A stretch of DNA of 64,000 nt from Candidatus Pacearchaeota archaeon (GTDB taxonomy: Archaea > Nanobdellota > Nanobdellia > UBA10117 > JABICX01), in assembly GCA_017608025.1 (NCBI GenBank), contig JAFCGM010000004.1, forward strand, positions 90,744-154,743, given 5' to 3'. This document shows, in pieces, positions 3,192 to 64,000 of this stretch. The stretch's first letter is position 1. Every line of letters starts with the position of its first letter. A program made the translations under genes and the position numbers. The notes beneath the pieces are model-generated. The model had not been told where the DNA came from and searched no databases. It saw only the letters and a program-made list of their open reading frames with translations.

Positions 3192-3635
3192 ATGAAAAAA
3201 GCAGCAACAAACATAATATCTTTCGGAGCCTTAACCCTAATTGGCTTACTAGTTGTTAGTATGGTTTTTGTAATTTCTGAAAACATTGTTGAAAATGCAA
3301 ACAAAGAAATATCAAAAGAATTTGCAGAGAATATTTTCCTTCTTGCTGAAAGCAAAATAATTGAAATCGAAACTCTTGTAAACTACTCTCATTCTGGAAA
3401 TGAAATTTCAATAGAAATAAAAGAAAAAATACCTGAAAAGCTTGGAAGAAACTCTTATACAATTCAAGGAAAAAACAACTCTCTTTTATTCAAAACTCAA
3501 AATTATGGATATTCTAAAATAAAAAACATTTCCTGGTCAGACATGAATATTCAAGGAATTTGCTATTCTGGAAACAAAGAAATATCTCTTTCATTTAATT
3601 CCAGCCAATCAAATAAAACAATCACGCTATGCTGA
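3192..3635 (+). CDS. Pilin-like protein with a class III signal peptide.
   Basis: N-terminus MKKAATNIISFGALTLIGLLVV. Confidence 0.5.
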   Translation: MKKAATNIISFGALTLIGLLVVSMVFVISENIVENANKEISKEFAENIFLLAESKIIEIETLVNYSHSGNEISIEIKEKIPEKLGRNSYTIQGKNNSLLFKTQNYGYSKIKNISWSDMNIQGICYSGNKEISLSFNSSQSNKTITLC

Positions 3636-3673
3636 ACTATATGTTTATAAACTAGTTTTGTTTACTTTAAGCT

Positions 3674-8286: not shown

Positions 8287-8687
8287 TAAAATCAAAAAAA
8301 TCTCTTATTTACATAATGGAAACAATGCTTTGTGCAGTGGCTTTTGCGCTTATATTATTCTACTTTTCAAACTCGTTCTCAAGCCTTGAACAAGATACTT
8401 CTGAAATTGATACAGATAGCTTAATATATTCTTTAATTAATACTCGGGAAGTAAATATTTCATCAATTCCCAACATAAAAACAAGTTCAGAAAGAATAAT
8501 GGGTACAAGCTTCGAACTTAAAATGTTTTTTATAAATTCAAGCTGCTACATACTAAACTCCACAGATAGTCTTATTCAGAACTCAAATTGCTCATACTCA
8601 TTCAACACAAACAAAAATGTATTTTCCGGAGAAGCAAAAATAAGCACAGGAGAAACAATAAAAATATTATTTTGGAGGAAAATGTGA
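8277..8687 (+). CDS. Pilin-like protein with a class III signal peptide.
   Basis: N-terminus MELIKSKKSLIYIMETMLCAVAFALILF. Overlaps the upstream gene. Confidence 0.4.
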   Translation: MELIKSKKSLIYIMETMLCAVAFALILFYFSNSFSSLEQDTSEIDTDSLIYSLINTREVNISSIPNIKTSSERIMGTSFELKMFFINSSCYILNSTDSLIQNSNCSYSFNTNKNVFSGEAKISTGETIKILFWRKM

Positions 8688-8933
8688 TGAATAATAATAT
8701 ATTATCGAGGAAACTTATTTTTTGATGAAACTTTTTCAAAAGTTTCCGAAGATAGCGCCAGAAGGAACTTAGTTCCGCCTTGGGCTTTAGCCCTAGCCGA
8801 TTTTGCGGCTGAGTGTGTCCCTTGGCTAAAAGGACTTGAAGGAAAGTGTAATGAAAAATAAGTGACCTTTATAACTAAAATTTGGTCGCTGTCGCACAGT
8901 CCGGGCGAAACGGACAGAGGAAAATGTGATGAA
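8675..8933 (+). mobile_element. 224-bp family element (8693-8916) inserted exactly at an overlapping stop/start junction between two pilin genes. It is flanked by a 17-bp direct duplication (ggaggaaaatgtgatgaa at 8675-8692; gaggaaaatgtgatgaa at 8917-8933).
   Basis: Each copy keeps one gene end intact: copy 1 gives ...KM-TGA for the upstream gene; copy 2 supplies GAGG plus the ATG for the downstream gene. The insert has the tttgatgaaactttttcaaaagtttccg, gaagatagcgcc and gtgtcccttggctaaaaggact motifs plus GC-rich hairpins. Confidence 0.6.
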
Positions 8934-15283: not shown

Positions 15284-15358
15284 AGCGGGATGGGGCAGTC
15301 TGGAGTGCCCGTCGGGCTCATAACCCGAAGGTCGAAGGTTCAAATCCTTCTCCCGCTA
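15284..15358 (+). tRNA. tRNA-Met (anticodon CAT), initiator-type.
   Basis: Cloverleaf: acceptor AGCGGGA/TCCCGCT, anticodon stem TCGGG/CCCGA with three G:C pairs, loop CTCATAA, T-arm GAAGG-TTCAAAT-CCTTC. A1:U72 pair, archaeal initiator signature. Confidence 0.85.
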
Positions 15359-15543
15359 CTTACAAGGAGAAATTCAATAAACCTTTTGGGTTGGAAAACA
15401 TCCCTGAAGGTTTTCCGCCAGAAACGAACGTAGTTCGTGCCTATGAAATAGTGCTTTTTTAAAAGGGCTGTTTAGGGTTGGAAGACCTTTTTCAAAGGGA
15501 TTCCGTTTGAATCCTTCTCCCGCTACTTACAAGGAGAAATTCA
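15343..15543 (+). mobile_element. 133-bp repeat element (15377-15509) inserted at the 3' end of tRNAi-Met, flanked by a 34-bp direct duplication of the tRNA 3' end plus downstream sequence (15343-15376 and 15510-15543).
   Basis: Exact direct repeat AATCCTTCTCCCGCTACTTACAAGGAGAAATTCA twice. The internal sequence shares a >50-nt near-identical core (GGTTTTCCGCCAGAAACGAACGTAGTTCGTGCCTATGAAATAGTGCTTTTT) with 35579-35632. Confidence 0.6.
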
Positions 15544-19085: not shown

Positions 19086-19988
19086 ATGGTTTTAGAGTCA
19101 ATAATCCCAGTAAACATTGCTGAGGAAAGGCCGATTAAAATTCTTCCTACAAGTTTCATATATGCCACAATAGCCTTGTTCATTGCTTATTGGCTTTTCC
19201 CAACAGAAGCTAGCATGACTCTAATTTTTTTCACAGTAATGGCTTGCCTTCCTCTAATGCTTGGCCTAATCGGACTTGAAAAACTAAAAGCAGAAGCAAT
19301 TTTAAAGGAAATAGTTTTTGACTATGTATCTCAACCAAATAAAAAAACATCAAATCCTTTCAAAACCCACAAAAAATTCTTCCTGTTTATGACATACTTA
19401 ACAATTGGACTTGTTCTTGCATTCACTCTTTGGTATATTGTTCTGCCAACAAATATGGTAAATCTTCTTTTCAATTCCCAAATAAACACAATAAACACAA
19501 TAAACAGCAATGTGTCCCATCTAACTGGAAATGCAATAAACATTATATCTTATTTCAGCATAATACTTACAAACAATCTCAAGGTTTTGATTTTCTGTCT
19601 TCTCTTTTCTTTCATTTATGGAGCAGGAGCAATTTTCATTCTTGTTTGGAACGCCAGTGTTGTATCTATTGCAATTGGAAATTCAATTAGAGGTCTTTTA
19701 AGCAGTTACGCAGCAGCAACTGGAGCAAACACTCTTAGTCAGTATTTCTCTGCCTTCTCTCTTGGACTCTTGCGATATATTGTACATGGAATTCCTGAAA
19801 TCGGAGCATATTTTATTGGTGGGCTTGCTGGAGGAATGATTTCAATTGCAATTATAAAACACGAATTTATGAGTCCTAAATTCAAAATAATTTTAATGGA
19901 CGCCCTCCTGCTAATGCTAATTTCTGTCGGGCTTCTAATCCTTGCCGCACTTATAGAAACCTTTATCAGTCCACTAATTCCTATTTAA
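19086..19988 (+). CDS. SpoIIM-like (DUF95 family) polytopic membrane protein, paralogue 1.
   Basis: Multi-TM protein. Conserved core NNLKVLIFCLLFSFIYGAGAIFILVWNASVV is shared with the downstream paralogue. Confidence 0.5.
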   Translation: MVLESIIPVNIAEERPIKILPTSFIYATIALFIAYWLFPTEASMTLIFFTVMACLPLMLGLIGLEKLKAEAILKEIVFDYVSQPNKKTSNPFKTHKKFFLFMTYLTIGLVLAFTLWYIVLPTNMVNLLFNSQINTINTINSNVSHLTGNAINIISYFSIILTNNLKVLIFCLLFSFIYGAGAIFILVWNASVVSIAIGNSIRGLLSSYAAATGANTLSQYFSAFSLGLLRYIVHGIPEIGAYFIGGLAGGMISIAIIKHEFMSPKFKIILMDALLLMLISVGLLILAALIETFISPLIPI

Positions 19989-20331: not shown

Positions 20332-21174
20332 ATGGTTTTAGAATCAATAATTCCAATAAAAACAGCAGAAAAGCAACCAATAGAAATGCTGCCTCTGGCT
20401 TTTTTGTATGCTTCAATTGGAATTTTCATTGGATACTGGATTTTTCCAAATTACGCAAGCCTCTCTTCTGTTTTCTTCACAGTCCTTGCTCTAGTGCCTT
20501 TAATGGTAAGTTTCATAAAATTCGAGGAAAAAGATGTTTTCAAAAAGCAGGAAAAATGGCATCACAAAAAAGCAATTCCTTTTTTTTGCTTTATGTTTCT
20601 CGGCCTTGTTTTTGCTTATTCATTTTGGTTCATAGTGTTCCCTTCTTCTCTAATTGGAAGTGTTTTTGGAATTCAGCTTAACACAATAAATCAAATAAAC
20701 AGCCAAGTAACTGGAAATTCTGCAGCAGTATCGTTTTTTTCAGCAATTTTATCAAACAATCTCAAGGTTTTGATTTTCTGTCTTCTCTTTTCTTTCATTT
20801 ACGGAGCAGGAGCAATTTTCATTCTTGTTTGGAATGCAAGCGTGGTTTCAGCAGCAATTGGAAATGGAGCTAGAGCATTAATTTCAAAACTTGTAGAAAC
20901 AACAAACCTACCAGGAATTGCAGTGTATTTCTCTGCCTTCTCTCTTGGGTTACTTAGGTATATGTCTCATGGAATTTTCGAAATGATTGGCTATTTCCTA
21001 GGCGGGCTTGCTGGTGGACTGATTTCTGTTGCAATTCTCCGTCACGAATTTATGGATAATAATTTCAAAAAAGTAATGCTCGATTCATTAACCTTAACTC
21101 TTTTTTCAATAGCAGTTTTGATTCTGGCTGCAGTAATAGAAGTTACTTTCTCACCCTTAATTCCATTTAAATAA
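20332..21174 (+). CDS. SpoIIM-like (DUF95) membrane protein, paralogue 2.
   Basis: ~45% identical to 19086-19988 overall, but shares an 83-bp tract (20755-20837) with only 2 mismatches to 19572-19654. Confidence 0.5.
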   Translation: MVLESIIPIKTAEKQPIEMLPLAFLYASIGIFIGYWIFPNYASLSSVFFTVLALVPLMVSFIKFEEKDVFKKQEKWHHKKAIPFFCFMFLGLVFAYSFWFIVFPSSLIGSVFGIQLNTINQINSQVTGNSAAVSFFSAILSNNLKVLIFCLLFSFIYGAGAIFILVWNASVVSAAIGNGARALISKLVETTNLPGIAVYFSAFSLGLLRYMSHGIFEMIGYFLGGLAGGLISVAILRHEFMDNNFKKVMLDSLTLTLFSIAVLILAAVIEVTFSPLIPFK

Positions 21175-35443: not shown

Positions 35444-35557
35444 GTTAAGTATGAAAAAGTAATACCTATTTAAAAAGATTGTTGTTTTTTGGCAGACGAA
35501 AAGCAGATACTTTTATAAAGTAATACTTTTTCATAATATCAATGAAAAATAAATTTA

Positions 35558-35674
35558 GTGTGGAGGTTCTTTTCTAAAGGTTTTCCGCCAGAAACGAACG
35601 TAGTTCGTGCCTATGAAATAGTGCTTTTTCTAAAAGAGCTGTTTGAGGTGAAGACCTTTTCCAAAGGGATTCAA
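35558..35674 (+). repeat. Repeat-family element covering the 5' leader of the next gene.
   Basis: Contains the ~53-nt core shared with 15403-15455 and an end gaggtgaagaccttttccaaagggattcaa. The ORF-track start at 35558 lies inside it. Confidence 0.6.
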
Positions 35675-39023: not shown

Positions 39024-40099
39024 TGGCAAAAAAAACAAAACCTGAAAAAAAAGAGGAAAAAATTTCAGAAGAAATTGCAGAAAACAATCCAGAAGAAAAA
39101 GCAAAACAAAAAAAAGAATCTGATGAAATAAAAGAAAAAGAAAAAGTAGCTACAATGAAAATCGAGGACTTACCTGGAGTTGGTCCGGCAACTGTTGAAA
39201 AGCTAAAGGAAGCAGGTTATTTAGACTTAATGAGTCTAGCAGCAGCCCCTTCTCGTGAACTTGCAGACATAGCAGGAATGACTGAATCTGGAGCAGGAAA
39301 AGTTATTGTTGCTGCAAGAAAAGCTCTTAAAATTGATTTCATGACAGGAGATGAATTATCTTCAAAAAGAAAAAGTATTGAAAGAATATCAACTGGAAGC
39401 CAGGAATTTAACAAGCTTATTGGTGGGGGAATTGAAACACAAGGTCTGTTTGAATGCTTTGGTGAATATGGTTCTGGAAAATCCCAACTAGCAATGCAGT
39501 TGGCAGTTATGGCTCAGCTTCCAAAAGAAAACGGAGGTCTCAACAGTGATGTAATTTACATTGACACAGAAAACACATTCCGGCCAGAAAGAATAAAGCA
39601 AATAGCAGAAGCGCAAGGCCTTGACTCTAAAAAAGTATTGAAAAGAATAATGGTAGCTCGGGCATTCACATCAGATCATCAAATGCTGCTTGCAGAAAAA
39701 ATTGACAGTATGATTCGTGAAAAGAATATACACGTAAGGCTTGTAATAGTAGATTCCTTAACTTCATTATTCAGAACAGAATATTCTGGAAGAGGAACTC
39801 TCGCCACAAGACAGCAAAAACTTAATCGACATCTTCACACTCTGCAGAGAATCGCAGACATACACAACATAGCAGTTTACGTAACAAACCAAGTAATGGC
39901 TCGGCCAGACATTTTCTTTGGAAACCCAACAGCAGCAATAGGAGGTCATGTTCTAGGGCATGCCTGCCAGTTCAGAGTTTACCTTAGAAAAAGCAAAGGA
40001 GACAAAAGAATCGCCCGCTTAATAGACTCTCCATATTTACCAGAAGGCGAAGCAATCTTCAGAGTAACTGAAAAAGGAATTGAAGATATTAAGTCCTAA
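39023..40099 (+). CDS. radA: DNA repair and recombination protein RadA, with a Lys/Glu-rich N-terminal extension or an alternative start at 39155.
   Basis: HhH ([13 protein letters not shown]), Walker [10 protein letters not shown], RecA core. 358 aa. Confidence 0.9.
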
Positions 40100-40440
40100 C
40101 TTGTGTTAAGCAATCACTTTTTTGATGAAACTTTTTCTAAAATTTCAATTTTTTGCAAGCTTTCTTTCTAAGAAAGCTTTGGGAATGAAAACACTTTTTA
40201 AAGGGTTTTCTGTAACTGAAAAAGGAATTGAAGATGTTAAGTCTTAATTACAGGTATCGTATTTTGTTTACCTGTTGAAAGTGCCAGCTGATTTTGCAGC
40301 TGGAAGATGTTAAGTCTTAATTACAGGTATCGTATTTTGTTTACCTGTTGAAAGTGCCAGCTGATTTTGCAGCTGGAAGATGCTAAATCCTAACTTATAT
40401 TAAGCAATCCATTTTTTTAATGAAACTTTTTCTAAAAGAG
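40066..40440 (+). repeat. Nested/tandem array downstream of radA: four direct copies of the radA 3' end (40066-40099, 40214-40247, 40303-40320, 40376-40393). They are separated by a ~95-bp family element and by two copies of a 55-bp two-hairpin module (40248-40302 and 40321-40375; period 73 bp).
   Basis: Copies ...gaagat(a/g)ttaagtc(c/t)taa. Module ttaCAGGTAtcgtattttgttTACCTGttgaaagtgcCAGCTGattttgCAGCTG with two perfect stems. Confidence 0.65.
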
Positions 40441-42470: not shown

Positions 42471-43946
42471 TCAAATTCTAAACTTAACCACAATCTTAGG
42501 ACCATCTTCAGAATCCTGAATCTCATATCCTTTTGAAGCCAGCTCATCTCTAATTTTGTCTGCCTTTTCCCAGTCTTTGTTTTTTCTTGCTTTTTCTCTC
42601 TCATCAACTTTATTTAAAATCTCTTTTGGAATTTCTTCCTTATAATCCAAAACACCTAAAACAGAATCAAATTTCTCAAGTTCCTGAAGCAAAATTTTTG
42701 CTCCTTTTTTGCTCAGCTCCTTTTTTGAAATAAGCTTATTTCCTTCAGAAATCATCTCAAAAATAAAAGCAATTCCTTTTGAAATATTAAGGTCGTTGTC
42801 CATTGCTTTTTCAAATTCCTTTCTTGTGTTTTTTGAAAGAACTACTCCGTCATTCTTGCCATTGCTATTGTAATTTTCCAAATCTTTCTTAAAGGAAAGA
42901 ATCTTCTGCAAGGCTTTGTTTGAAGCCTGAAATGAATCAAATGTAAAATTAAATGGTTTCCGATAATGCTTTGAAAGCAGAAAAAATCTGAACTGTTGTG
43001 GAGTAAACCCTCTCTTGTATATATCTTCTGGAGTGTAAAAATTACCTGTCCTTTTGCTCATCTTCTCTCCTTCAACAAACAAGTGCCTTACATGCATCCA
43101 AAAATTTGAAAAATCTTTTCCAGTAGCGCCTTTTGTCTGGGCAATCTCTGCCTCATGATGTGGAAATATATTATCTTCTCCGCCAGTGTGAATATCAATT
43201 GTCTCAAATTTTTTTGGATAAAATTTTCCTTTTGAAAAGCAGTTTGACAAATATTTCATTGCCATAACCGAACATTCAATATGCCATCCAGGATACCCGT
43301 GGTCATTCCATGGAGACGACCACCACATTAAATGATCTGGATCATTAACCCACAGCGAAAAATCATAAAAATGCCTCTTTTCTTTGTTTGAATCTACATC
43401 CCGTCCAGACTTGCCTTCCTCAAGTTTTTCAATAGTATTTCCTGAAAGCTTTCCATACTCTGGAAATTTTGAAATATCATAATAAACGCTTCCATTAACT
43501 TCATAAGCAAGTTTCTTTTTAAGCAAAACAGAAATAACTTGCTGCATTTCCTTTATATGGTCTGTTGCTCTTGGTCGATGATATGGCTTTTTAAGATTAA
43601 GCTTTTCGCATTCCTTTTCAAATGCATTTTCATAAAACCGAGCAATTTCTTCTGGAGAAATTTTTTCTTTCTTGGCTTTTTTCTGAATCTTGTCTTCTCC
43701 TTTTTCCAAATCATCATCAGACAAATGCCCTACATCAGTAATATTCATAACCTGCTTAACTTCAAAACCCTTATATTCCAAATACCGTCGCAAAACATCT
43801 GCAAAAACAAAGCTACGAAAATTGCCAATATGCGCATAATCATAAACTGTTGGTCCGCAATTGTACATTCTCACAACGTTTCCCTTAACTGGTTTGAAAT
43901 TCTCAAGTTTTTTAGAATAAGTATTGTAAAACCTAAGACTCATCAT
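42471..43946 (-). CDS. cysS: Cysteinyl-tRNA synthetase.
   Basis: HIGN (HIGH) and KMSKR (KMSKS) motifs, 491 aa. Confidence 0.9.
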   Translation of the reverse strand: MMSLRFYNTYSKKLENFKPVKGNVVRMYNCGPTVYDYAHIGNFRSFVFADVLRRYLEYKGFEVKQVMNITDVGHLSDDDLEKGEDKIQKKAKKEKISPEEIARFYENAFEKECEKLNLKKPYHRPRATDHIKEMQQVISVLLKKKLAYEVNGSVYYDISKFPEYGKLSGNTIEKLEEGKSGRDVDSNKEKRHFYDFSLWVNDPDHLMWWSSPWNDHGYPGWHIECSVMAMKYLSNCFSKGKFYPKKFETIDIHTGGEDNIFPHHEAEIAQTKGATGKDFSNFWMHVRHLFVEGEKMSKRTGNFYTPEDIYKRGFTPQQFRFFLLSKHYRKPFNFTFDSFQASNKALQKILSFKKDLENYNSNGKNDGVVLSKNTRKEFEKAMDNDLNISKGIAFIFEMISEGNKLISKKELSKKGAKILLQELEKFDSVLGVLDYKEEIPKEILNKVDEREKARKNKDWEKADKIRDELASKGYEIQDSEDGPKIVVKFRI

Positions 43947-44112
43947 TTTCCTCCTTTATATTTTCAACACTATTTTTTGGATGAAACTTTTTTTCAAAAC
44001 CCAAAACAGGAATATCAAAATCAACTGACAACTCAATATCCTTTTTTAAAAAACTCAAAAAATCTTCTTGATTAACAAACTCTTTTTTCAAAAGTTCTAA
44101 ATCACAAAAAAA

Positions 44113-44185
44113 GCACGGGGCGGGATTTGAACCCGCAATCTTACGGGCTGCAACCGTACGCCTTACCGGATTTGGCCACCCGTGC
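44113..44185 (-). tRNA. tRNA-Cys (anticodon GCA).
   Basis: Minus-strand cloverleaf GCACGGG-TG-GCC..GGC-G-TACGG-TTGCAGC-CCGTA-AGATT-GCGGG-TTCAAAT-CCCGC-CCCGTGC. 73 nt, directly upstream of cysS on the same strand. Confidence 0.85.
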
Positions 44186-44212
44186 AATTCTTGCCAAATT
44201 TCCTCCTTGTAC

Positions 44213-44219
44213 TTTAAAA
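44213..44219 (-). promoter_or_regulatory. TATA-like box (minus-strand TTTTAAA) about 28-34 nt upstream of tRNA-Cys.
   Basis: AT-rich box at the archaeal TATA distance from the mature tRNA 5' end. Confidence 0.35.
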
Positions 44220-44286
44220 CTAAATTGTTTTCCTCAGCAAAATTCAAGAACTCGTTATCTATCTTTAAATTCTTAAGCTGTACAGG

Positions 44287-44543
44287 GATGCTCACCCTTA
44301 CATTCCATTTTAATTTACCTTGATTTTCCGTGAACACTTTTCTTAAAAGGGTTCTTGTTTTTTTGATGAAACTTTTTCTAAAAGTTTCCGTGAACACTTT
44401 TCTTAAAAGGGTTCTTGTTTTTTTGATGAAACTTTTTCTAAAAGTTTCCGTGAACACTTTTGCAGGCATCGTATTTTATTCGCCTGCTCAGAGTGCCAGC
44501 TGATCTCTCAGCTGTGGTGCTCACCCTTACATTCCATTTTAAT
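44287..44543 (+). repeat. Repeat locus upstream of tRNA-Cys. 25-bp direct repeats (44290-44314 and 44519-44543) flank two and a fraction tandem 60-bp units (44325-44384, 44385-44444) plus one 52-bp two-hairpin module (44462-44513).
   Basis: Unit tttccgtgaacacttttcttaaaagggttcttgtttttttgatgaaactttttctaaaag. Module GCAGGCatcgtattttattcGCCTGCtcagagtgcCAGCTGatctctCAGCTG. Confidence 0.65.
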
Positions 44544-44599
44544 CTCAGATATTTATTTATATTAAATCTTGCCTTTTAAAAACCTTTGGGTGATCGTAA

Positions 44600-44914
44600 T
44601 CAAAAAAAAGAGCTTGCTCTCCTTAATATCAAGTAAAGTGAAATAGCAATCAGCAATGCTGGCCAGAAAACTTGTTCAGAGACATAACCCAAATTCTTCA
44701 AAAGCCAAAACAAGGCAATTATAAGCAAAATTGACGGTATAAATCCAACTCCTCTTCCTCTAAAAAGATGCGTGTATCTCATAACTGGAACATTTTTCGG
44801 AATTTTAATTGAAACACCAGGAAACCGAATATCTTCATCAAACTCCTGCCAGTTTGCATCAATATCTCTTTTTTTATTTGTCTTTCTTTTTTTAAGCTTT
44901 TTATTAAATACCAT
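44600..44914 (-). CDS. Hypothetical small membrane protein with a basic N-terminus and two TM helices.
   Basis: ORF only. Confidence 0.3.
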   Translation of the reverse strand: MVFNKKLKKRKTNKKRDIDANWQEFDEDIRFPGVSIKIPKNVPVMRYTHLFRGRGVGFIPSILLIIALFWLLKNLGYVSEQVFWPALLIAISLYLILRRASSFF

Positions 44915-52739: not shown

Positions 52740-52835
52740 TACTCCTCCATTGCACTGCGCGTAAACGTATGTGCAATCAAATTGCGAGCTTTTTCGAAAG
52801 CTCTGAAATTTTTATTTCCGTTTTATTCCTGCTCC
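52740..52835 (+). repeat. Direct duplication of the RHH gene 5' end (gaaatttttatttcc[a/g]tt...tcctcc) at 52722-52750 and 52803-52835.
   Basis: Read directly. The second copy lacks the start codon. Confidence 0.5.
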
Positions 52836-52993
52836 TTATCAACAAGAACAATAACTCGTTTTCCAATTAATTTTTTCGGAAGTGTGATTTTTCCAGATGA
52901 AGCATTGTTTTTAATAACATATCTTGTTAAAATTTGGTTAAAGTTTATTGGCTTCAACTTAACACTTCCCCGAACTTTCGCATTAATTCCCAT
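52823..52993 (-). CDS. 56-aa AbrB/MazE/SpoVT-like swapped-hairpin DNA-binding protein. Not in the supplied ORF track because it is under 60 aa.
   Basis: Translation MGINAKVRGSVKLKPINFNQILTRYVIKNNASSGKITLPKKLIGKRVIVLVDKEQE. The GKITLPKKL..GKRV motif resembles the AbrB swapped hairpin. ATG at 52991-52993 (rc), TAA at 52823-52825 (rc). Confidence 0.35.
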   Translation of the reverse strand: MGINAKVRGSVKLKPINFNQILTRYVIKNNASSGKITLPKKLIGKRVIVLVDKEQE

Positions 52994-53359
52994 TAAATTA
53001 ATTCCTCATCTTTCTAATTTGTTTCTTTGGGCAACTTGCACTTTCTTTTCTAAAGAAAGGGCAGAGCATTAATTCCCATTAAATTAATTCCTCGTCTCTC
53101 TAATTTGTTTCTTTGGGCAACTTGCACTTTCTTTTCTAAAGAAAGGGCAGAGCATAACTTTTATAGTCTAATTAAAGACTACAATATTTAAAAACCTTAT
53201 GTGCATCCTTGCTCTACACGATCATATTCGTCATTTTCCGCAAGCGCTTTTTCCAAAAGGGCTCCATGAGTCCCTTGGCTAGAAGGACTATAACCAGAAT
53301 TAAACCGTTGTGTGAAGCTCTGCTTTACACGACCAGCCTGTGTCCCTTGGCTAGAAGGA
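52979..53359 (+). repeat. Two tandem 87-bp units (52979-53065 and 53066-53152), each beginning with a copy of the AbrB-like gene start. These are followed by a ~120-bp GC-richer family element (53235-53359) carrying two gtcccttggctagaaggacta hairpin motifs.
   Basis: Tandem units are near-identical. The 53235-53292 segment is ~90% identical to 3041-3100. Confidence 0.6.
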
Positions 53360-55581: not shown

Positions 55582-55770
55582 CTAAAATATAACGTATGCT
55601 TCTTAAATTATATTTCTTTTAGTGCAGGTTTTCTTTGTAAAAGAAAAAGTGCAAAGGTCTCTAAAATATAACGTATGCTTCTTAAATTATATTTTTTTCT
55701 TTGTAAAAGAAAAAGTGCAAAGGTCTCTAAAATATAACGTATGCTTCTTAAATTATATTTCTTTTAATAC
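55582..55770 (+). repeat. Three tandem direct repeats (79, 66 and a partial ~45 bp) upstream of the TraB-family gene.
   Basis: Unit ctaaaatataacgtatgcttcttaaattatattt(c)tttt...ctttgtaaaagaaaaagtgcaaaggtct. Units begin at 55582, 55661 and 55727. Confidence 0.7.
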
Positions 55771-55857: not shown

Positions 55858-56514
55858 ATGTCTCTCAAAATACTTGGCTCATCGCACATATCAGGAAAAT
55901 TCGCAAGCAAGGTTTATGACACAATAATCGTTGAAGAACCAGAAATTGTTGCAGTTGAATTAGACTTAGCTCGCGCCCGCGCTTTATTTTCAAAACAAAA
56001 ACAAAAAATTTCATTTAAAACAATAAGGAATTTCGGCCTTTTTGGGTTCTTTTTTGCACTTATTGGATCTAAAATACAGAAATATTTAGGTAAAAAAGTT
56101 GGTTTTGAACCTGGAATTGACATGAAAAAGGCAATTATTGCAGCAAAAAAAGTAAATTCAAAAATAATTCTCATTGACCAGCCAATGAGTAAAACACTTC
56201 AAAAACTTTCCAAAATTAGTTTTAAAGAAAAAGTAAAACTTTTCTTTTATTTAATTTGGCCATTTCAAAAAAAAGCTAAAATGTCTTTTGATTTGTCTTC
56301 TGTGCCAAATGAAAAAACAATTAATAAAATAATAAAAGATTTTAAAGAAAAATTTCCTGGAATTTATTCGGTGCTTATTAAAGAAAGAAATGATTTTATT
56401 GCAAAAAACTTAATTGATTTAAAAAGAAAATTTGAAAATTTAAACATTGTAGCTGTTTTGGGAGCAGGACATGTTTCTGAAGTAAAAAAATTAATTAAAA
56501 ATTTTGAAGAATAA
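55858..56514 (+). CDS. TraB/PrgY-family protein (Tiki/TraB fold).
   Basis: N-terminus ILGSSHISGKFASKV, GHVSEV near the C-terminus. 218 aa. Confidence 0.6.
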   Translation: MSLKILGSSHISGKFASKVYDTIIVEEPEIVAVELDLARARALFSKQKQKISFKTIRNFGLFGFFFALIGSKIQKYLGKKVGFEPGIDMKKAIIAAKKVNSKIILIDQPMSKTLQKLSKISFKEKVKLFFYLIWPFQKKAKMSFDLSSVPNEKTINKIIKDFKEKFPGIYSVLIKERNDFIAKNLIDLKRKFENLNIVAVLGAGHVSEVKKLIKNFEE

Positions 56515-56526
56515 TTAAAAATATTT

Positions 56527-56818
56527 TTAAAAAAATTATTTTAATATAATATTTTTTTAAATATAAATTAAAACAAAAAAAAGCATTTTTTAACTGAAAT
56601 ATGCAAAAAAAATAGCAAAAATTAAATAAAAAATTAAATAAAAATTATTTTTTATTAAATTAAAACAAAAAATAAGTAAATTTAATGAAAAATCATAAAA
56701 AATACATAAAAATCATGAAAAAAAGATTTAAAAAAATTATTTTAATATAATATTTTTTTAAATATAAATTAAAGCAAAAAAAGCAAGAGATAAGTTTTTA
56801 TGTTCTGAAATATACAAA
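56527..56818 (+). repeat. Extremely AT-rich (>90% AT) intergenic region containing a ~200-bp tandem duplication. The 59-bp near-identical cores are at 56527-56585 and 56727-56785, with weaker similarity continuing about 30 bp beyond each.
   Basis: tttaaaaaaattattttaatataatatttttttaaatataaattaaa(a/g)caaaaaa(a)agca occurs twice, 200 bp apart. Confidence 0.7.
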
Positions 56819-57673: not shown

Positions 57674-59872
57674 ATGCAATTCTTAAAGCAAAAGCTAAAT
57701 TTAAGAGTGTATCAGCAAACAATATTAAACACAGCTCTTAGCAAAAATACTCTTTGCGTAATCCCTACTGGTCTTGGAAAAACCTACATAGCAATAGCTC
57801 TAATTGGCTTAAAATTAAAAGAAAAAAAAGCAATTTTTCTTGCTCCAACTAAGCCTCTTGTAACGCAGCACTTTAACACCTTTAAGCAGTTTTTTGATTC
57901 TGAACCCGAAGAAATAATTGAAGTTTCTGGAACAGTTCCTTCAAAAAAAAGAAAAGAAATGTATAAAAAAGCAAAAATAATTTTTGCAACCCCACAAACA
58001 ATTGAAAATGACATAATTACAAAAAGAATACTTCCTGAGGAATTTTCAATAGCAATATTTGATGAAGCTCATCGCGCAGTAGGAGACTATGCATATGTTT
58101 TCCTTGCAAAGCAATTCAAAGAAAGTAGAATTCTAGCATTAACAGCTTCTCCCGGTCATGAAATTGAAAAAATAAATGAAATAAAAAATAACCTGTTTAT
58201 TCAAGAAATTGAAAAAAGAACACAAAAAGACAAAGATGTTAAAGAATATGTAAAGGAAATTAAATTTCAGTACAAAAAAGTTGAGCTTCCAAAACTTATG
58301 AAAGCAATACAAAAACACCTTAAAATGGCAATGAAAGAATATCTTGTCCAACTAAAGGAATTAGATATTATTGACTCAACCAGCTTGTCAAAATTCAGCA
58401 GAAAAAACCTTCTAAATCTTCAAACTAAACTTCGTACGCAAATAAGCACAGGAGATTTTGAAATAATGCGCGCCCTATCAATAACAGCAAGACTAATAAA
58501 AATAAATTATGCCCTTCATCTTCTTGAATCTGAATCGCTGAATGCCTTGAATGATTATTTAAAGTCAATTTGGAAAGATTCAAAAACAACAAAAACAAAA
58601 GCAGTAAAAGCTCTTGTCCAAAATTTCCATATTCGTGCAGCATACAGGCTTTCTCAAGAATGTAAAGAAAAGAAAATAGAGCACCCAAAAATGCTTGAAC
58701 TGAAAAAAACAATTAAACAGGAATTGAAAAAAAATCCCAACTCAAAAATACTAATTTTCACTGAATACCGAAGCAATGTTGAGCAAATTGTACAAGAATT
58801 ATCTGAATTTAAAATTCATCAGTTTGTTGGCCAATCCTCTTTAAAGAAAAAAGGAATGTCGCAAAAAGAGCAGATTAAAGCAATAGAAGATTTAAAAACA
58901 GGAAAAGTTAATGTTCTTGTCTGCACTTCTGTAGCTGAAGAAGGCCTTGACATTCCAAAAGTGGATTTAATTGTTCTTTATTCTCCAATTCCTTCTGCTA
59001 TTAGGTCAATACAAAGAAAAGGAAGAACTGGCAGACAGGAAGTTGGAAATCTTGTAGTCCTTTTAACAAAAGACACAAAAGATGAAACTTATCATTGGAT
59101 TTCTGTAAATCGGGAAAGGAAAATGAATCAAGTGCTTACAAACATGTCACAGTCAAAAAGCAAGCTAATAACTCTTGACTCCTTTCAAAACAAAAGCAAA
59201 GAAAAGCAAACTGTTGAAAATAGGGAAGAAATAAAAGTATATTGTGATTGCCGCGAATCAGGAATATTAAAATATCTCATAGAGCACGGCGTTACAGTTC
59301 TTCCAAAAAAACTAGAAGTTGCAGACTTCATTCTCTCTGATGATATTGCAGTTGAAAGAAAGGAAGTAGAAGATTTTACTTCTTCTTTAATTGACCAACG
59401 CCTTTTTAACCAAGCAACTGAACTAAAACGAAACTTCGAAAAACCGCTTTTTATTATTGAAGGAGACTTATCAGAAATTTTCTTTTCAAGAAACATAAAT
59501 CCTGATGCTCTCCGCTCAGCAATGATCTCTTTGCTTGTTGATTATCAAATACCTTTTTTATTCAGTTCAAACAAGCAGGAAACTGCAAAATACCTTTACC
59601 TCATAGCTAAAAGAGAACAAATTGAAAAGAAAAAATTAATTTCCTTACGCGGCTCCAAAAGATTAACTTCAATTCCAGAAATGCAGCAATTCTTTATTGA
59701 AGGTTTGCCTTTAATTGGTCCTGCTCTTACAAAAAAGCTCCTAAAGCACTTCAAAACACCAAAAGCTTTGTTAAATGCCTCAAAAGAAGAGCTTCAAAAT
59801 GTTAAAAACCTCGGCCCAAAAAAAGCAGAAAAAATCAAAATGATTCTTGAAGAAATATATGATGAAGAATGA
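57674..59872 (+). CDS. hef: Hef (helicase-associated endonuclease for fork-structured DNA; XPF/FANCM homologue).
   Basis: SF2 helicase motifs (GLGKT, DEAH), XPF nuclease ERK motif (AVERKEVEDF), C-terminal HhH2. 732 aa. Confidence 0.85.
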   Translation: MQFLKQKLNLRVYQQTILNTALSKNTLCVIPTGLGKTYIAIALIGLKLKEKKAIFLAPTKPLVTQHFNTFKQFFDSEPEEIIEVSGTVPSKKRKEMYKKAKIIFATPQTIENDIITKRILPEEFSIAIFDEAHRAVGDYAYVFLAKQFKESRILALTASPGHEIEKINEIKNNLFIQEIEKRTQKDKDVKEYVKEIKFQYKKVELPKLMKAIQKHLKMAMKEYLVQLKELDIIDSTSLSKFSRKNLLNLQTKLRTQISTGDFEIMRALSITARLIKINYALHLLESESLNALNDYLKSIWKDSKTTKTKAVKALVQNFHIRAAYRLSQECKEKKIEHPKMLELKKTIKQELKKNPNSKILIFTEYRSNVEQIVQELSEFKIHQFVGQSSLKKKGMSQKEQIKAIEDLKTGKVNVLVCTSVAEEGLDIPKVDLIVLYSPIPSAIRSIQRKGRTGRQEVGNLVVLLTKDTKDETYHWISVNRERKMNQVLTNMSQSKSKLITLDSFQNKSKEKQTVENREEIKVYCDCRESGILKYLIEHGVTVLPKKLEVADFILSDDIAVERKEVEDFTSSLIDQRLFNQATELKRNFEKPLFIIEGDLSEIFFSRNINPDALRSAMISLLVDYQIPFLFSSNKQETAKYLYLIAKREQIEKKKLISLRGSKRLTSIPEMQQFFIEGLPLIGPALTKKLLKHFKTPKALLNASKEELQNVKNLGPKKAEKIKMILEEIYDEE

Positions 59873-59955
59873 TTTGGGGATGCAAACACTTTTTCAAAGG
59901 GTTTGCTGCTGAAAAAATCAAAATGATTCTTGAAGAAGAATTTAGTGAGGAGTAA
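59825..59955 (+). mobile_element. 35-bp hairpin element (59873-59907, tttggggatGCAAACactttttcaaaggGTTTGCtgct) inserted at the Hef 3' end with a ~48-bp duplication of the gene tail (59825-59872 and 59908-59955).
   Basis: Copy 1 encodes ...AEKIKMILEEIYDEE*. Copy 2 encodes ...AEKIKMILEEEFSEE*. The first 30 bp are identical and the ends have diverged. Confidence 0.55.
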
Positions 59956-62494: not shown

Positions 62495-64000
62495 TTAATT
62501 GAAAAGCAAGTCATAAAGGCTCGTCTTAACTCTGTCAATTAAATCAAAAGGAATGGAAATATAAACTTCTCTTGTTCTTCCATATCTTCCTTTTGAAATA
62601 AGTTTTGTATTAATTAATCCAAGCATTCCTAATTCAGACAGCAAATCTGAAATTCTTCTTTGAGTTAAAATTCGATTTCCTGTCTGGTCGCAAAGCTCTT
62701 TGTATTTATCAAATATTTCTCCAGTCTCTGTTATTGAACCTTCTTTTTTATTTTCAATAACTAGCAAAATTGAATATAAAACCATTTGAGATTGCTTTGG
62801 CTGAGTCTCAATTATTTCCATTATGCGATTTCTTTCAATTTTTTCTTCAGCTAAATCAATGTGCTTCTCTTCAATAACAGCATCACCATGCCTCTCAGCA
62901 AGTTCTGCAGAAACTCTTAGTAAATCCAAGGCTCTTCTTGCATCTCCGTGCTCTCTAGCTGCATATGCAGCGCATTTTGCAAGCACAGATGTTGAAACAA
63001 CTCCTTTTTTAAAAGCATCTTTTGACCTTTCAAGCAAAATATCTTTTATTTCAAGAGCATTGTATGGTGGAAAAACAAGCTCTTCTTCTCCTAAAGAAGA
63101 CTTAACTCTTGGATCTAAATCCTCAACAAAACGAACATCATTTGAAATTCCAATTATTGAAACTTGTGAATTTTTAAGTTCAGCATTTATTCTTGTTAAA
63201 GTATAAAGAATCTCATCTCCTGCTTTCTTAACAAGTCTGTCAACTTCATCTAATACTAAAATAACAATTTGATTTTCAATATCAAGTTTTTTAAGGAAAA
63301 TATTGTAAACTTCGTCTGTTGGAAGGCCAGTCATTGGAACTTCCTCTCCAATTTCTCTTGCTAATTGAGCAATAACTCGATATTCCGTATCTGCAACTTT
63401 TTTCAATTTACAATTAATATAAATTATTTTCAAAGAAAGATTTCTTTTTAAAGATATTTTTTTTAATTTACTTAAAACATGTTGAACACATAAAGTCTTT
63501 CCCGTACCTGTTTTACCATATATAAATAAATTTGAAGGTTGCTCTTCTCGTAATGCTGGAGCTAAAATTGAAGCTAATTGTTTTATTTGTGTATTTCTAT
63601 GAGGAATTGTGTTTGGTAAATATCGAATCCGTAAAACATCTTTATTTTGAAAAATTGATTCTTTGCTTAAATAATCAGAAAAAAATTCATCTAATTCAGA
63701 CTCTGCTCCATTATCTTCCAAATCAATTTCATTAACTCTTTTCTCTTCTTCAGCTAATATTGTTTTTTGCTTTTCAAAATTATCTATATTAAAAAGAAAA
63801 ACCAACTCTTCATCATCAACAAAACAAATATTATTATAAAAATAAGAAAAATTCTTTTTTTCTATAGTAATTTCTTTATTAATTTGAATATATTTTTCTC
63901 TATCTTTAATTTCTTCAATATCTATTTTTTTTCGTTCTTCATTCAAAAATGAAGTTAAAAAAGAATCTTTAACCATATTGCTTCCACTGGAAAAATTCAT
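62495..64000 (-). CDS. orc1: Orc1/Cdc6 replication initiator with a ~110-aa acidic N-terminal extension. Its start is at or beyond the window edge.
   Basis: AAA+ Walker A GKTGTGKT, Walker B LVLDEVD, C-terminal winged helix. Confidence 0.85.
   Translation of the reverse strand: MNFSSGSNMVKDSFLTSFLNEERKKIDIEEIKDREKYIQINKEITIEKKNFSYFYNNICFVDDEELVFLFNIDNFEKQKTILAEEEKRVNEIDLEDNGAESELDEFFSDYLSKESIFQNKDVLRIRYLPNTIPHRNTQIKQLASILAPALREEQPSNLFIYGKTGTGKTLCVQHVLSKLKKISLKRNLSLKIIYINCKLKKVADTEYRVIAQLAREIGEEVPMTGLPTDEVYNIFLKKLDIENQIVILVLDEVDRLVKKAGDEILYTLTRINAELKNSQVSIIGISNDVRFVEDLDPRVKSSLGEEELVFPPYNALEIKDILLERSKDAFKKGVVSTSVLAKCAAYAAREHGDARRALDLLRVSAELAERHGDAVIEEKHIDLAEEKIERNRIMEIIETQPKQSQMVLYSILLVIENKKEGSITETGEIFDKYKELCDQTGNRILTQRRISDLLSELGMLGLINTKLISKGRYGRTREVYISIPFDLIDRVKTSLYDLLFN

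What the first reader, a model, noticed from the sequence alone, without database searches (positions are those of the whole stretch)
44287..44543. 60-bp tandem repeats plus a two-hairpin module bracketed by 25-bp direct repeats between tRNA-Cys and a small membrane-protein gene
gctcacccttacattccattttaat occurs at 44290-44314 and 44519-44543. Between them are 2.3 tandem copies of a 60-bp unit combining family modules (a) and ttccgtgaacacttttcttaaaagggttcttg, then the two-hairpin module. Here the duplicated target is not an annotated gene end. It may mark the end of an unannotated small gene or ncRNA. The supplied ORF 43933..44469 (minus strand) is a translation artefact of these repeats.
Basis: seen in the sequence. 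Interest (0 to 1): 0.5.

Follow-up and report, generated by a model that had tools for sequence, protein, structure and literature searches.

The report
Hairpin-repeat insert upstream of tRNA-Cys
A 203-base cluster of small hairpin-forming repeats was inserted just upstream of the cysteine tRNA gene of a Woesearchaeota-like archaeon, copying 26 bases of the target. It is one of a dozen same-strand clusters in this window that duplicate the gene ends or starts they interrupt.

Summary
An exact 26-nt direct repeat (44289-44314 / 44518-44543) brackets a 10-nt linker, a perfect 60-nt x 2.3 tandem array and a two-hairpin module.

The array unit combines two hairpin modules, which I call A and B. 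They recur at 6 and 8 other places in the window. The two-hairpin module (E) recurs at the radA 3' end.

Three related genomes (L086, L081, L083) carry the repeated 26-mer only once, with no insert. The window therefore has a lineage-specific insertion plus target duplication, followed by a slippage expansion.

The duplicated target is not the end of a plus-strand gene. It is the 5' part of a conserved block about 100 nt upstream of tRNA-Cys on the minus strand. That block can be read as a tiny Cys-containing ORF (MExKGxYPC).

The 178-aa ORF is an artefact that runs through the tRNA.

Twelve intergenic regions share these modules, always in the same orientation, often bracketed by 17-42 nt exact (up to about 77 nt imperfect) duplications of local sequence. 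The window has no transposase.

My best reading is a REP/BIME-like hairpin repeat system that spreads by replication-linked template switching. A trans-acting transposase is not excluded.

The parts
44289..44314 (.). Direct repeat copy 1 (26 nt). It is contiguous with the native sequence on the tRNA-Cys side.
   Evidence: Exact repeat. Colinear with L086, L081 and L083 on its left side.
44315..44324 (+). 10-nt linker TTACCTTGAT of unknown origin. It may be a remnant of a two-hairpin module (compare TTTACCTGTTGA at 40269-40280).
   Evidence: Reading. The resemblance is weak.
44325..44461 (+). Perfect tandem array, 60 nt x 2.3, in the order A-B-A-B-A'. A is TTTCCG plus a mismatched hairpin (44325-44354 and 44385-44414; truncated third copy 44445-44461). 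B is a T-run plus a 9-bp hairpin (stems 44368-44376/44380-44388 and 44428-44436/44440-44448).
44462..44487 (+). Two-hairpin module (E), hairpin 1: GCAGGC / loop ATCGTATTTTATTC / GCCTGC.
   Evidence: Four distinct copies (window and L088) are 100% paired, and 2 of 6 pairs show compensatory changes.
44496..44517 (+). Two-hairpin module (E), hairpin 2: CCAGCTGA / TCTC / TCAGCTG TGG.
44518..44543 (.). Direct repeat copy 2 (26 nt). It is contiguous with the native sequence on the side of the TATA-like box and the membrane-protein gene.
44273..44308 (-). Conserved block and putative micro-ORF ATGGAATGTAAGGGTGAGCATCCCTGTACAGCTTAA (MECKGEHPCTA*). Its first 20 nt, plus 6 nt upstream of the ATG, form the direct repeat.
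   Evidence: The motif ARRGTGRNNATCCCTG is found once upstream of tRNA-Cys in the window, L081, L083 and L086, and in none of 87 other loci.
44508..44537 (-). Truncated duplicate of the micro-ORF, created by the duplication (MECKGEHHS*). It runs into hairpin 2 of the E module.
   Evidence: Sequence. This is an inference.
44553..44566 (-). TATA-like box TTTAATATAAATAA, 16-29 nt upstream of the ATG in repeat copy 2. Comparable boxes sit about 25-35 nt upstream of the conserved ATG in L086, L081 and L083.
   Evidence: Reading. This is an inference; no archaeal promoter tool was available.
44112..44185 (-). tRNA-Cys (GCA), followed by cysS (42471-43946, -).
43933..44469 (-). 178-aa ORF, a spurious reading frame.
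40212..40394 (+). Sister locus at the radA 3' end: a copy of the gene end, then the two-hairpin module repeated 2.2 times (73-nt period), then another copy of the gene end.
   Evidence: The site is empty in L086 and filled in L088.

Best explanation
The region is a recent, lineage-specific insertion of a mosaic of small hairpin-forming interspersed repeats into the leader or promoter-proximal region of the tRNA-Cys-cysS unit.

The ancestral sequence was TATA-like box ... ATTAAAATGGAATGTAAGGGTGAGCA-TCCCTG ... tRNA-Cys, read on the minus strand. A 203-nt block (linker, A-B modules, two-hairpin module) now sits between two copies of a 26-nt slice of that sequence. The A-B part then expanded from 1.3 to 2.3 copies by slipped-strand mispairing between its 17-nt terminal repeats TTTCCGTGAACACTTTT.

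The modules belong to a non-autonomous family that is strictly oriented on one strand. The family has colonised at least 12 intergenic regions of this window.

The mechanism I think most likely is replication-linked template switching at hairpins. A nascent strand leaves its template, copies hairpin modules from another locus of the same polarity, and returns upstream of its departure point. This would produce a templated insertion flanked by a duplication of variable length.

Insertions are retained where the duplication regenerates the interrupted gene end, gene start or tRNA end.

Shown: the anatomy, the family, the shared orientation, the single-copy uninterrupted target in relatives, and hairpin covariation. 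Inferred: the order of events and the template-switch mechanism.
For: Insertion and duplication:
- The 26-mer is single-copy and uninterrupted in L086, L081 and L083.
- The window sequence, with the insert and one repeat copy removed, aligns colinearly with these three.

Recency:
- The two repeat copies are 26/26 identical and the array is 100% identical.

Family:
- 33 of 33 meaningful HSPs between different intergenic regions are +/+. They link 12 regions (2942-60154) whose flanking genes are arranged +/+, +/-, -/+ and -/-.
- Modules B (8/8), C (6/6), clear full A copies (6/6; the relaxed A pattern also gave weak or in-gene hits on both strands) and E (3/3) are all on the plus strand.

Variable duplications:
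- 25 local exact repeats of at least 17 nt lie within 800 nt of each other, against 0.02 in simulations. Lengths are 17, 17, 34, 42, 24, 26 and 27 nt, plus an imperfect pair of about 77 nt at radA.
- The duplications cover a tRNA-Met 3' end, a stop/SD/start junction and gene 3' ends.
- The inserts share no common termini or terminal inverted repeats, and each is a different mosaic.

No mobility enzyme:
- About 55 window ORFs are housekeeping genes. None is a transposase, integrase, reverse transcriptase or Cas1.

Same signature in independent assemblies:
- L088 has E and A modules at the radA end with a 13-nt repeat of the gene end, plus a nested 14-nt repeat around an extra hairpin.
- L086 has an empty radA site with a 35-nt spacer and almost no modules in 20 kb.

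Hairpins are selected:
- There are compensatory changes in E hairpin 1 and in the outer stems of A and D modules, with an invariant R.G mismatch.

One replication domain:
- GC skew is mostly negative, so the cumulative skew falls across the window. An orc1/cdc6 gene lies at the right edge.
Against: - No donor copy identical to the insert is available, and the junctions show at most 6 nt of possible microhomology (AGCTGT). The template-switch step is therefore not demonstrated.
- Only 64 kb of a 193-kb contig could be read, so a trans-acting transposase elsewhere in the genome cannot be excluded.
- Shared orientation would also follow from ssDNA transposition.
- Some modules are old: an A hairpin next to tRNA-Cys is shared by L081 and L086, and E at radA is shared with L088.
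- Module B occurs verbatim in four IMG/VR contigs. This hints that at least B has a conserved function rather than being purely selfish.
- The closest relatives are only 76-83% identical in protein, so no true empty allele at population level was seen.
Confidence: 0.5

Rival explanations
1. The modules are non-autonomous transposable elements moved in trans by an enzyme encoded outside the window. One candidate is a DDE transposase that makes long, variable staggered cuts (IS1634/IS1549-like). Another is a Y1 (RAYT/TnpA-like) ssDNA transposase acting at the replication fork.
For: Dispersed copies are flanked by duplications, and sites are empty in relatives. IS1634 and IS1549 make direct repeats of 8-514 bp (PMC2266710). 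Module A has a conserved unpaired head (TTTCCG) plus an imperfect hairpin, like a REP element. Strict strand bias fits ssDNA transposition. BIMEs next to rayt genes capture gene 3' ends (PMC2817692).
Against: The inserts have no terminal inverted repeats and no shared termini. Every insert is a different mosaic with filler bases at its junctions. IS200/IS605-type and REP elements make no target duplication. No transposase was found among about 55 ORFs. Duplications reach about 77 nt and include whole modules.
Confidence: 0.25
2. The structure is a functional cis-regulatory or non-coding RNA of the tRNA-Cys-cysS unit, for example a leader, a processing signal or an sRNA. On this reading it is not a selfish or mutational insert.
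For: It lies in the putative 5' leader. The hairpins are stable and their stems covary. On the minus-strand transcript the insert carries no T-run of 5 or more, so read-through to the tRNA would be possible.
Against: The insert is absent from the same site in three relatives. The same modules occur in 11 other unrelated intergenic regions, always on the plus strand and so antisense to the genes here. No Rfam family matches. The 100%-identical repeats indicate a very recent event.
Confidence: 0.08
3. This is the first reader's reading: the duplicated 25-mer marks the 3' end of an unannotated plus-strand small gene or ncRNA that the element targets.
For: At other loci the duplicated segment does contain a gene or tRNA 3' end.
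Against: No plus-strand ORF is possible there: there is a stop 15 codons upstream and no start codon. The conserved block extends beyond the repeat on the tRNA side and is cut by the repeat edge. At 8675/8917 and 35553 the duplicated segment contains a gene start, so 'gene end' is not the common denominator.
Confidence: 0.03
4. The repeats are an assembly artefact, or the 178-aa ORF is a real repeat-containing protein.
For: The source is a metagenome assembly. Gene callers annotated the equivalent ORF in L081 and L086.
Against: The same kinds of structure occur in four independent assemblies. The ORF contains a complete tRNA on the same strand, has no family hit and is not conserved in frame. 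Codon-position differences upstream of the tRNA, counted by hand, are 10/7/14, which is not a clear coding pattern.
Confidence: 0.03

Closest known systems
REP elements and bacterial interspersed mosaic elements (BIMEs), thought to be mobilised by RAYT (Y1) transposases
   Same: Short imperfect extragenic palindromes with a conserved non-palindromic head. They combine into mosaic clusters with variable tandem copy number, are lineage-specific, show compensatory stem changes, and occasionally capture a neighbouring gene's 3' end (PMC2817692). REP-like sequences have been reported in archaea (PMC12306157).
   Different: REPs in BIMEs alternate in orientation, whereas here all modules face the same way. 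REPs and BIMEs have no flanking target duplication. No RAYT gene was seen in the window. The hairpins here are AT-rich with T/A-tract cores.
IS1634 / IS1549 (IS1634 family)
   Same: They generate long target duplications of variable length, 8-514 bp (PMC2266710).
   Different: They are 1.5-2 kb autonomous insertion sequences with a DDE transposase and terminal repeats. Here the inserts are 56-240 nt, non-coding, without common ends.
Repetitive hairpin-forming elements and double-hairpin elements of mitochondrial genomes (Allomyces, sponges, yeast GC clusters)
   Same: Small mobile hairpin or double-hairpin units that invade intergenic regions of compact genomes. They are present or absent between close relatives, and their mechanism is unknown (PMC2800124; Paquin et al. 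2000 as cited in PMC3787672).
   Different: Those occur in organelles. Allomyces double-hairpin elements lack flanking duplications. No sequence similarity to them was tested or expected.
MITEs
   Same: Short, non-coding, intergenic elements in multiple copies, flanked by duplicated target sequence.
   Different: Here there are no terminal inverted repeats, the duplication length is not fixed (17 to about 77 nt) and the composition is a variable mosaic.
Slippage, flap-ligation and template-switch duplications (rad27/FEN1-type duplications, FoSTeS/MMBIR templated insertions); from my own knowledge
   Same: Tandem duplications bounded by short repeats, duplications with inserted templated sequence at the junction, strand asymmetry, and stimulation by hairpins.
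   Different: These are described as mutational processes in yeast, human and bacteria. They are not described as the spreading mode of a repeat family in archaea.
Leader-peptide attenuation (trpL/hisL type); relevant only to the duplicated target
   Same: A tiny ORF containing the cognate codon (Cys) lies upstream of tRNA-Cys and cysS and is conserved in four genomes.
   Different: No terminator/antiterminator pair was found. It is an archaeal system, and there is only one invariant Cys codon.

Membership tests
REP/BIME | Many copies of a 20-40 nt imperfect palindrome confined to extragenic DNA | tested here: met
   Modules A, B, C, D and E total about 30 clear copies, all intergenic.
REP/BIME | REPs within a cluster alternate in orientation (inverted pairs) | tested here: not met
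   All 33 HSPs between loci are +/+, and no inverted copies were found.
REP/BIME | A cognate RAYT (Y1 transposase) gene flanked by the REPs | tested here: inconclusive
   None among about 55 ORFs of the 64-kb window. The rest of the genome could not be fetched.
MITE | Terminal inverted repeats | tested here: not met
   The ends of the insert (TTACCTTGAT... / ...CAGCTGTGG) are not inverted repeats. The other inserts also share no termini.
MITE | Target-site duplication of fixed, family-specific length | tested here: not met
   Exact lengths are 17, 17, 24, 26, 27, 34 and 42 nt, plus an imperfect pair of about 77 nt.
IS200/IS605-derived elements (PATE-like) | Subterminal hairpins, insertion 3' of a short target, no target duplication, and TnpA/TnpB in the genome | tested here: not met
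   Hairpins and strand bias are present, but a 26-nt duplication flanks the insert. No TnpA or TnpB in the window.
IS1634-type elements | Long, variable-length direct repeats at insertion | tested here: met
   compared with PMC2266710.
IS1634-type elements | A DDE transposase and conserved element ends | tested here: not met
   No transposase in the window and no conserved ends. The rest of the genome was not searched.
Slipped-strand tandem expansion | Head-to-tail identical units whose array begins and ends in the same short repeat (X-Y-X-Y-X) | tested here: met
   60 nt x 2.3 at 100% identity. The 17-nt TTTCCGTGAACACTTTT occurs at 44325, 44385 and 44445.
Any curated RNA family (Rfam 15), including C/D-box sRNA | Covariance-model match at the gathering score | tested here: not met
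   Only the two tRNAs pass. The best other hit is U5 at 24 bits against a threshold of 40. By eye, UGAUGA is present but no properly spaced CUGA boxes.
Leader-peptide attenuator (for the duplicated target) | A short upstream ORF enriched in the cognate codon, plus mutually exclusive terminator/antiterminator structures | tested here: inconclusive
   The micro-ORF with an invariant Pro-Cys is present in 4 of 4 genomes. No T-run terminator follows it.
Integrative element at a tRNA gene (att duplication) | A direct repeat overlapping the tRNA 3' end, and an integrase gene within the insert | tested here: not met
   The repeat lies about 100 nt upstream of the tRNA-Cys 5' end. The 203-nt insert is non-coding.

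The most novel reading that the evidence does not exclude
The modules are a previously undescribed kind of mobile element in DPANN archaea: hairpin elements specific to one replication strand. They insert with long, variable target duplications (17 to about 77 nt) and so rebuild the gene ends, gene starts and tRNA ends that they split. This would let them invade a streamlined genome. They would be driven either by an unknown enzyme or by the replication machinery itself. A secondary possibility is that the duplicated target is a Cys-sensing leader micro-ORF (MExKGxYPC) for the tRNA-Cys-cysS unit.
Probability: 0.2. Interest if true: 0.75.

Novelty: new variant of a known kind. Interest (0 to 1): 0.5.

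Why it matters
DPANN archaea have very small, tightly packed genomes. In this window, however, about a third of the intergenic regions of 40 nt or more (12 of 33) carry proliferating hairpin modules.

These modules differ from REP/BIME elements and MITEs in three ways: strict shared orientation, no terminal inverted repeats, and long variable duplications of the flank. If the process is replication-linked, these genomes offer a natural record of template switching at hairpins in archaea.

There are practical consequences for annotation. The repeats create spurious ORFs: the same tRNA-spanning ORF was called as a gene in L081 and L086, and in L083 the gene call next to tRNA-Cys starts inside the tRNA. 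They also create relic gene ends and alternative C-termini.

The duplicated target also exposes a conserved, unannotated element upstream of tRNA-Cys and cysS that is worth testing as a regulatory micro-ORF.

Tried and rejected
- Source contig. Exact look-ups of CysRS and RadA from the window, and of P0001, failed. The rest of the genome therefore could not be searched.
- Genome collection scan with CysRS. It returned only relatives at 51% identity or less, plus one short fragment at 58%, with no synteny.
- Metagenome scan for the two-hairpin module. My pattern (ATCGTATTTT...AGTGCCAGCTGA) was too strict. The single hit, L085, was a chance match inside a coding region. L088 later showed that related modules have ATCGCATTTT or ATCGTTTTTT.
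- Viral contig scans for modules E and A found nothing.
- More distant cysS loci (L084, L089, L090, L056, L017) lack the tRNA-Cys-upstream arrangement and were uninformative.
- The 178-aa ORF as a real protein: rejected.
- Diversity-generating-retroelement-style A-to-N mutagenesis between gene-end copies: rejected. The differences are ordinary transitions in both directions.
- C/D-box sRNA reading of the UGAUGA in module B: rejected. There are no correctly spaced CUGA boxes and no Rfam hit.
- Modules as gene-oriented terminators: rejected as a general explanation. In convergent and -/- regions they are still on the plus strand. Some A copies are nevertheless followed by T-runs.
- A TTAC target of the IS608 type: rejected. 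TTAC belongs to the insert and is absent from the uninterrupted target sequence.
- dif/Xer-type or att-type site: rejected. The 26-mer is not palindromic and there is no integrase.

Full report
**Observation**

- The 25-mer occurs exactly twice in the window and never in 100 shuffles. The exact repeat is 26 nt long, at 44289-44314 and 44518-44543.
- Between the two copies lie three parts:
  - a 10-nt linker (TTACCTTGAT);
  - a perfect tandem array at 44325-44461, period 60, 2.3 copies, 100% identity;
  - a two-hairpin module at 44462-44517.
- Folded as single-stranded DNA, the whole unit is far more structured than shuffles: z = -6.7, with 0 of 200 shuffles as stable.
- tRNA-Cys lies at 44112-44185 on the minus strand. 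cysS follows at 42471-43946 (-).
- A real LiaF-TM-like 104-aa gene lies at 44600-44914 (-).

**Organism and context**

- The window encodes RPA, RadA, RadB, a topoisomerase, Hef, Hel308, LonB, the PolD small subunit and Orc1/Cdc6. GC content is about 33%.
- The nearest named RadA relatives are Woesearchaeota, so this is a DPANN archaeon.
- No transposase, integrase, reverse transcriptase or Cas1 was found among about 55 ORFs.
- The source genome could not be fetched. It is absent from the genome and metagenome DNA collections.

**The parts belong to dispersed families**

- The 60-nt unit is two modules:
  - B = TTTTTTGATGAAACTTTT-TCT-AAAAGTTTC, a perfect 9-bp hairpin;
  - A = TTTCCG plus the hairpin GAACACTTTT..AAAAGGGTTC, with one A.G mismatch.
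- B occurs 8 times and A occurs 6 times in full in the window. The B-A junction recurs at 8737 and 20017.
- The two-hairpin module (E) recurs twice at the radA 3' end.
- Further families are C, D and G (my labels), plus a 125-nt composite found at 15385 and 35553.
- I compared all 33 intergenic regions of at least 40 nt against each other without prior assumptions. This gave 33 significant matches between different loci, linking 12 regions between 2.9 and 60.2 kb. Every match is plus/plus.
- The single minus match is AT-rich low-complexity sequence.
- The flanking genes of these 12 regions are in all four arrangements. The shared orientation is therefore not tied to transcription.
- GC skew is negative across most of the window, so the cumulative skew falls from end to end, and orc1/cdc6 sits at the right edge. 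The window is thus probably one replication domain.

**Hairpins are maintained**

- E hairpin 1 is fully paired in four distinct copies (window and L088). Two of its six pairs changed on both sides.
- The outer stems of A and D covary (G-C, A-T, C-G) around an invariant R.G mismatch.
- That mismatch makes the plus-strand form 2-2.7 kcal/mol more stable as ssDNA than its complement.

**Flanking duplications are the rule**

- The window holds 25 exact local repeats of at least 17 nt within 800 nt of each other. Simulated sequence gives 0.02. Nearly all lie in the hairpin-bearing intergenic regions.
- The repeats that bracket hairpin mosaics cover:
  - the last 17 nt of tRNA-Met plus 17 nt downstream (34 nt);
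  - a junction of stop codon, Shine-Dalgarno sequence and start codon between two genes (17 nt);
  - the 3' ends of radA (24 nt, nested within an imperfect duplication of about 77 nt), a SpoIIM-like gene (42 nt) and hef (27 nt, followed by two different C-terminal tails).
- The upstream copy always completes the upstream gene. The downstream copy supplies the beginning of what follows.
- The inserts have no terminal inverted repeats and no shared termini. Each is a different mosaic, with a few filler bases at the junctions.

**Comparative evidence for insertion at this locus**

- L086 (RadA 79% identical) is syntenic from RPA to tRNA-Cys. Upstream of its tRNA-Cys the sequence ATTAAAATGGAACTGAAAGGTGATTATCCCTGTAGA occurs once, uninterrupted.
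- L081 (CysRS 76%) and L083 (CysRS 62%) also carry the block once.
- The motif ARRGTGRNNATCCCTG occurs only there in these loci and in the window. It is absent from 87 other fetched loci.
- After removing 44315-44543, the window sequence aligns colinearly with all three relatives.
- The window therefore carries a derived insertion with a 26-nt duplication. Because both the repeat and the array are 100% identical, the event is recent.
- The array ends in the same 17-mer with which it begins. This is the signature of slippage expanding an X-Y-X structure.

**Sister locus at radA**

- In L086 radA is followed by a 35-nt spacer with no modules.
- In L088 (RadA 83%) the same site holds E1-A-E1-E2 modules between two copies of the gene end (13 nt). 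It also has a nested 14-nt repeat around an extra hairpin inside E2.
- In the window the radA site shows three layers: an old outer duplication, an E insertion with an 18-nt imperfect repeat, and a perfect 73-nt tandem duplication.
- L086 has almost none of the modules in 20 kb. The families therefore expanded in a sub-lineage.

**What the duplicated target is**

- It is not the end of a plus-strand gene. That frame has a stop at 44266-44268 and no start codon.
- On the minus strand the repeat spans positions -6 to +20 around a conserved ATG.
- From that ATG all four genomes have a short ORF:

| Genome | Peptide |
|---|---|
| window | MECKGEHPCTA |
| L086 | MELKGDYPCRALKKEHSEKNQ |
| L081 | MEQKGGYPCRTLFEKKRSRKN |
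| L083 | MKSDYPCCH |

- Pro-Cys is invariant. A TATA-like box lies about 25-35 nt upstream, which is compatible with a leaderless or short-leader transcript (the promoter reading is an inference).
- The left edge of the repeat cuts this conserved block. The duplication is therefore an arbitrary slice of it.
- The upstream copy now encodes a truncated MECKGEHHS.
- Whether the block is a micro-ORF, a protein-binding site or a transcript 5' end is untested. I found no terminator-like structure that would make it a classical attenuator.

**The 178-aa ORF**

- It is translated from the repeats, repeat copy 1 and the entire tRNA-Cys.
- It has no Pfam match.
- Its similarity to the L081 counterpart is mostly the tRNA.
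- The frame is closed in L083, and in L086 it has a stop just upstream of where the called ORF starts.
- The same spurious ORF was called as a gene in L081 and L086, and in L083 the adjacent gene call (3318-4007) starts inside the tRNA.

**Mechanism**

- Several features argue against a conventional transposase:
  - the duplications are variable and sometimes very long;
  - the ends are imprecise and contain filler bases;
  - each insert is a different mosaic;
  - the nested X-insert-X structures occur even inside modules;
  - many perfect tandem duplications sit at the same sites.
- They fit replication-associated template switching and slippage at hairpins, which would also preserve polarity.
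- This step is inferred, not shown.
- A trans-acting enzyme encoded outside the window remains a serious rival. Candidates are an IS1634-like DDE transposase, which gives 8-514 bp repeats (PMC2266710), or a RAYT-like Y1 enzyme (PMC2817692).
- Module B occurs verbatim in four IMG/VR contigs. At least that hairpin may therefore have a conserved function.

**Comparison with known elements and verdict**

- The closest known kinds are:
  - REP/BIME elements, which share the mosaic of imperfect palindromes and the capture of gene ends, but alternate in orientation and make no duplication;
  - mitochondrial repetitive or double-hairpin elements (PMC2800124);
  - IS1634-type long duplications.
- The locus fails the defining tests for MITEs, IS200/IS605 derivatives, att-site integrations and every Rfam family.
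- I rate it a new variant of a known kind, namely interspersed hairpin repeats. Interest is moderate.

Noticed in passing
window 44273-44308 (-); L086 14337-14372 (-); L081 ~2905-2940; L083 ~3222-3250: A conserved block about 80-140 nt upstream of tRNA-Cys in four genomes. It can be read as a micro-ORF MExKGxYPC with an invariant Pro-Cys, and a TATA-like box lies about 25-35 nt upstream. It may be a leader peptide or micropeptide of the tRNA-Cys-cysS unit.
   Followed up: partly
window 40064-40440: The radA 3' end is present in four copies of different ages (IKS*, VKS* twice, AKS*). They are interleaved with modules B, G, D and E. The site is empty in L086 and filled in L088.
   Followed up: yes
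window 15343-15376 / 15510-15543; also 35553-35673: A 34-nt exact duplication of the tRNA-Met 3' end plus downstream sequence brackets a 133-nt hairpin composite. Most of this composite (about 125 nt) recurs at about 90% identity at the start of the NTP-transferase gene, where the ORF finder reads through it.
   Followed up: partly
window 8675-8691 / 8917-8933: A 17-nt duplication contains the Shine-Dalgarno sequence, the stop codon of one gene and the overlapping start codon of the next. It flanks a 225-nt hairpin mosaic that now separates two formerly overlapping genes.
   Followed up: partly
window 59828-59854 / 59911-59937: The hef 3' end is duplicated around a D-type hairpin. The first 27 nt are identical, but the two C-terminal tails are divergent though similar (IYDEE* and EFSEE*). 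This suggests replacement of a gene end, with the old end left behind as a relic.
   Followed up: partly
window 52980-53155 and 55629-55765: Two further near-perfect tandem duplications (86 nt x 2.0 and 66 nt x 2.1) lie in intergenic regions. The first overlaps a dubious 96-aa ORF (52782-53072).
   Followed up: no
window 56487-56782: A very AT-rich stretch (GC about 0.26 in the 2-kb bin) has 92-98-nt repeats and a 47-nt exact repeat 201 nt apart. It lies between a TraB-family gene and an M50 peptidase gene, 6 kb from orc1/cdc6 (62495-64000). No sustained GC-skew sign change occurs there (the 56-58 kb bin is near zero), so an origin role is unsupported.
   Followed up: no
L091 3319-3374, L092 4383-4410, L093 11204-11231, L094 1624-1651 (IMG/VR contigs): Module B (TTTTGATGAAACTTTTT(C)TAAAAGTTTC) occurs almost verbatim in four 'viral' contigs, in tandem in L091. 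In L092 at least, it lies between a stop codon and the next start. It may be a broadly conserved hairpin signal in this group of organisms or their viruses.
   Followed up: partly
L081 2925-3425; L086 13926-14357; L083 3318-4007: Public gene calls in three relatives run through or start inside tRNA-Cys on the same strand. This is a systematic annotation artefact of the purine-rich strand.
   Followed up: partly
L081 1650-2861; L083 3395-4007: Gene content around tRNA-Cys varies. L081 has a class-V aminotransferase between the membrane-protein gene and the tRNA, which the window lacks. L083 has a Ser-hydrolase gene between the tRNA and cysS.
   Followed up: no
window 19086-19988 and 20332-21174: Tandem paralogous SpoIIM-like genes (74-89% nucleotide identity in places) are separated by a 343-nt hairpin mosaic.
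   Followed up: no
L086 1354-1509: A 71-nt exact tandem repeat lies immediately upstream of a Cdc6-like gene in the relative. It could be origin repeats.
   Followed up: no
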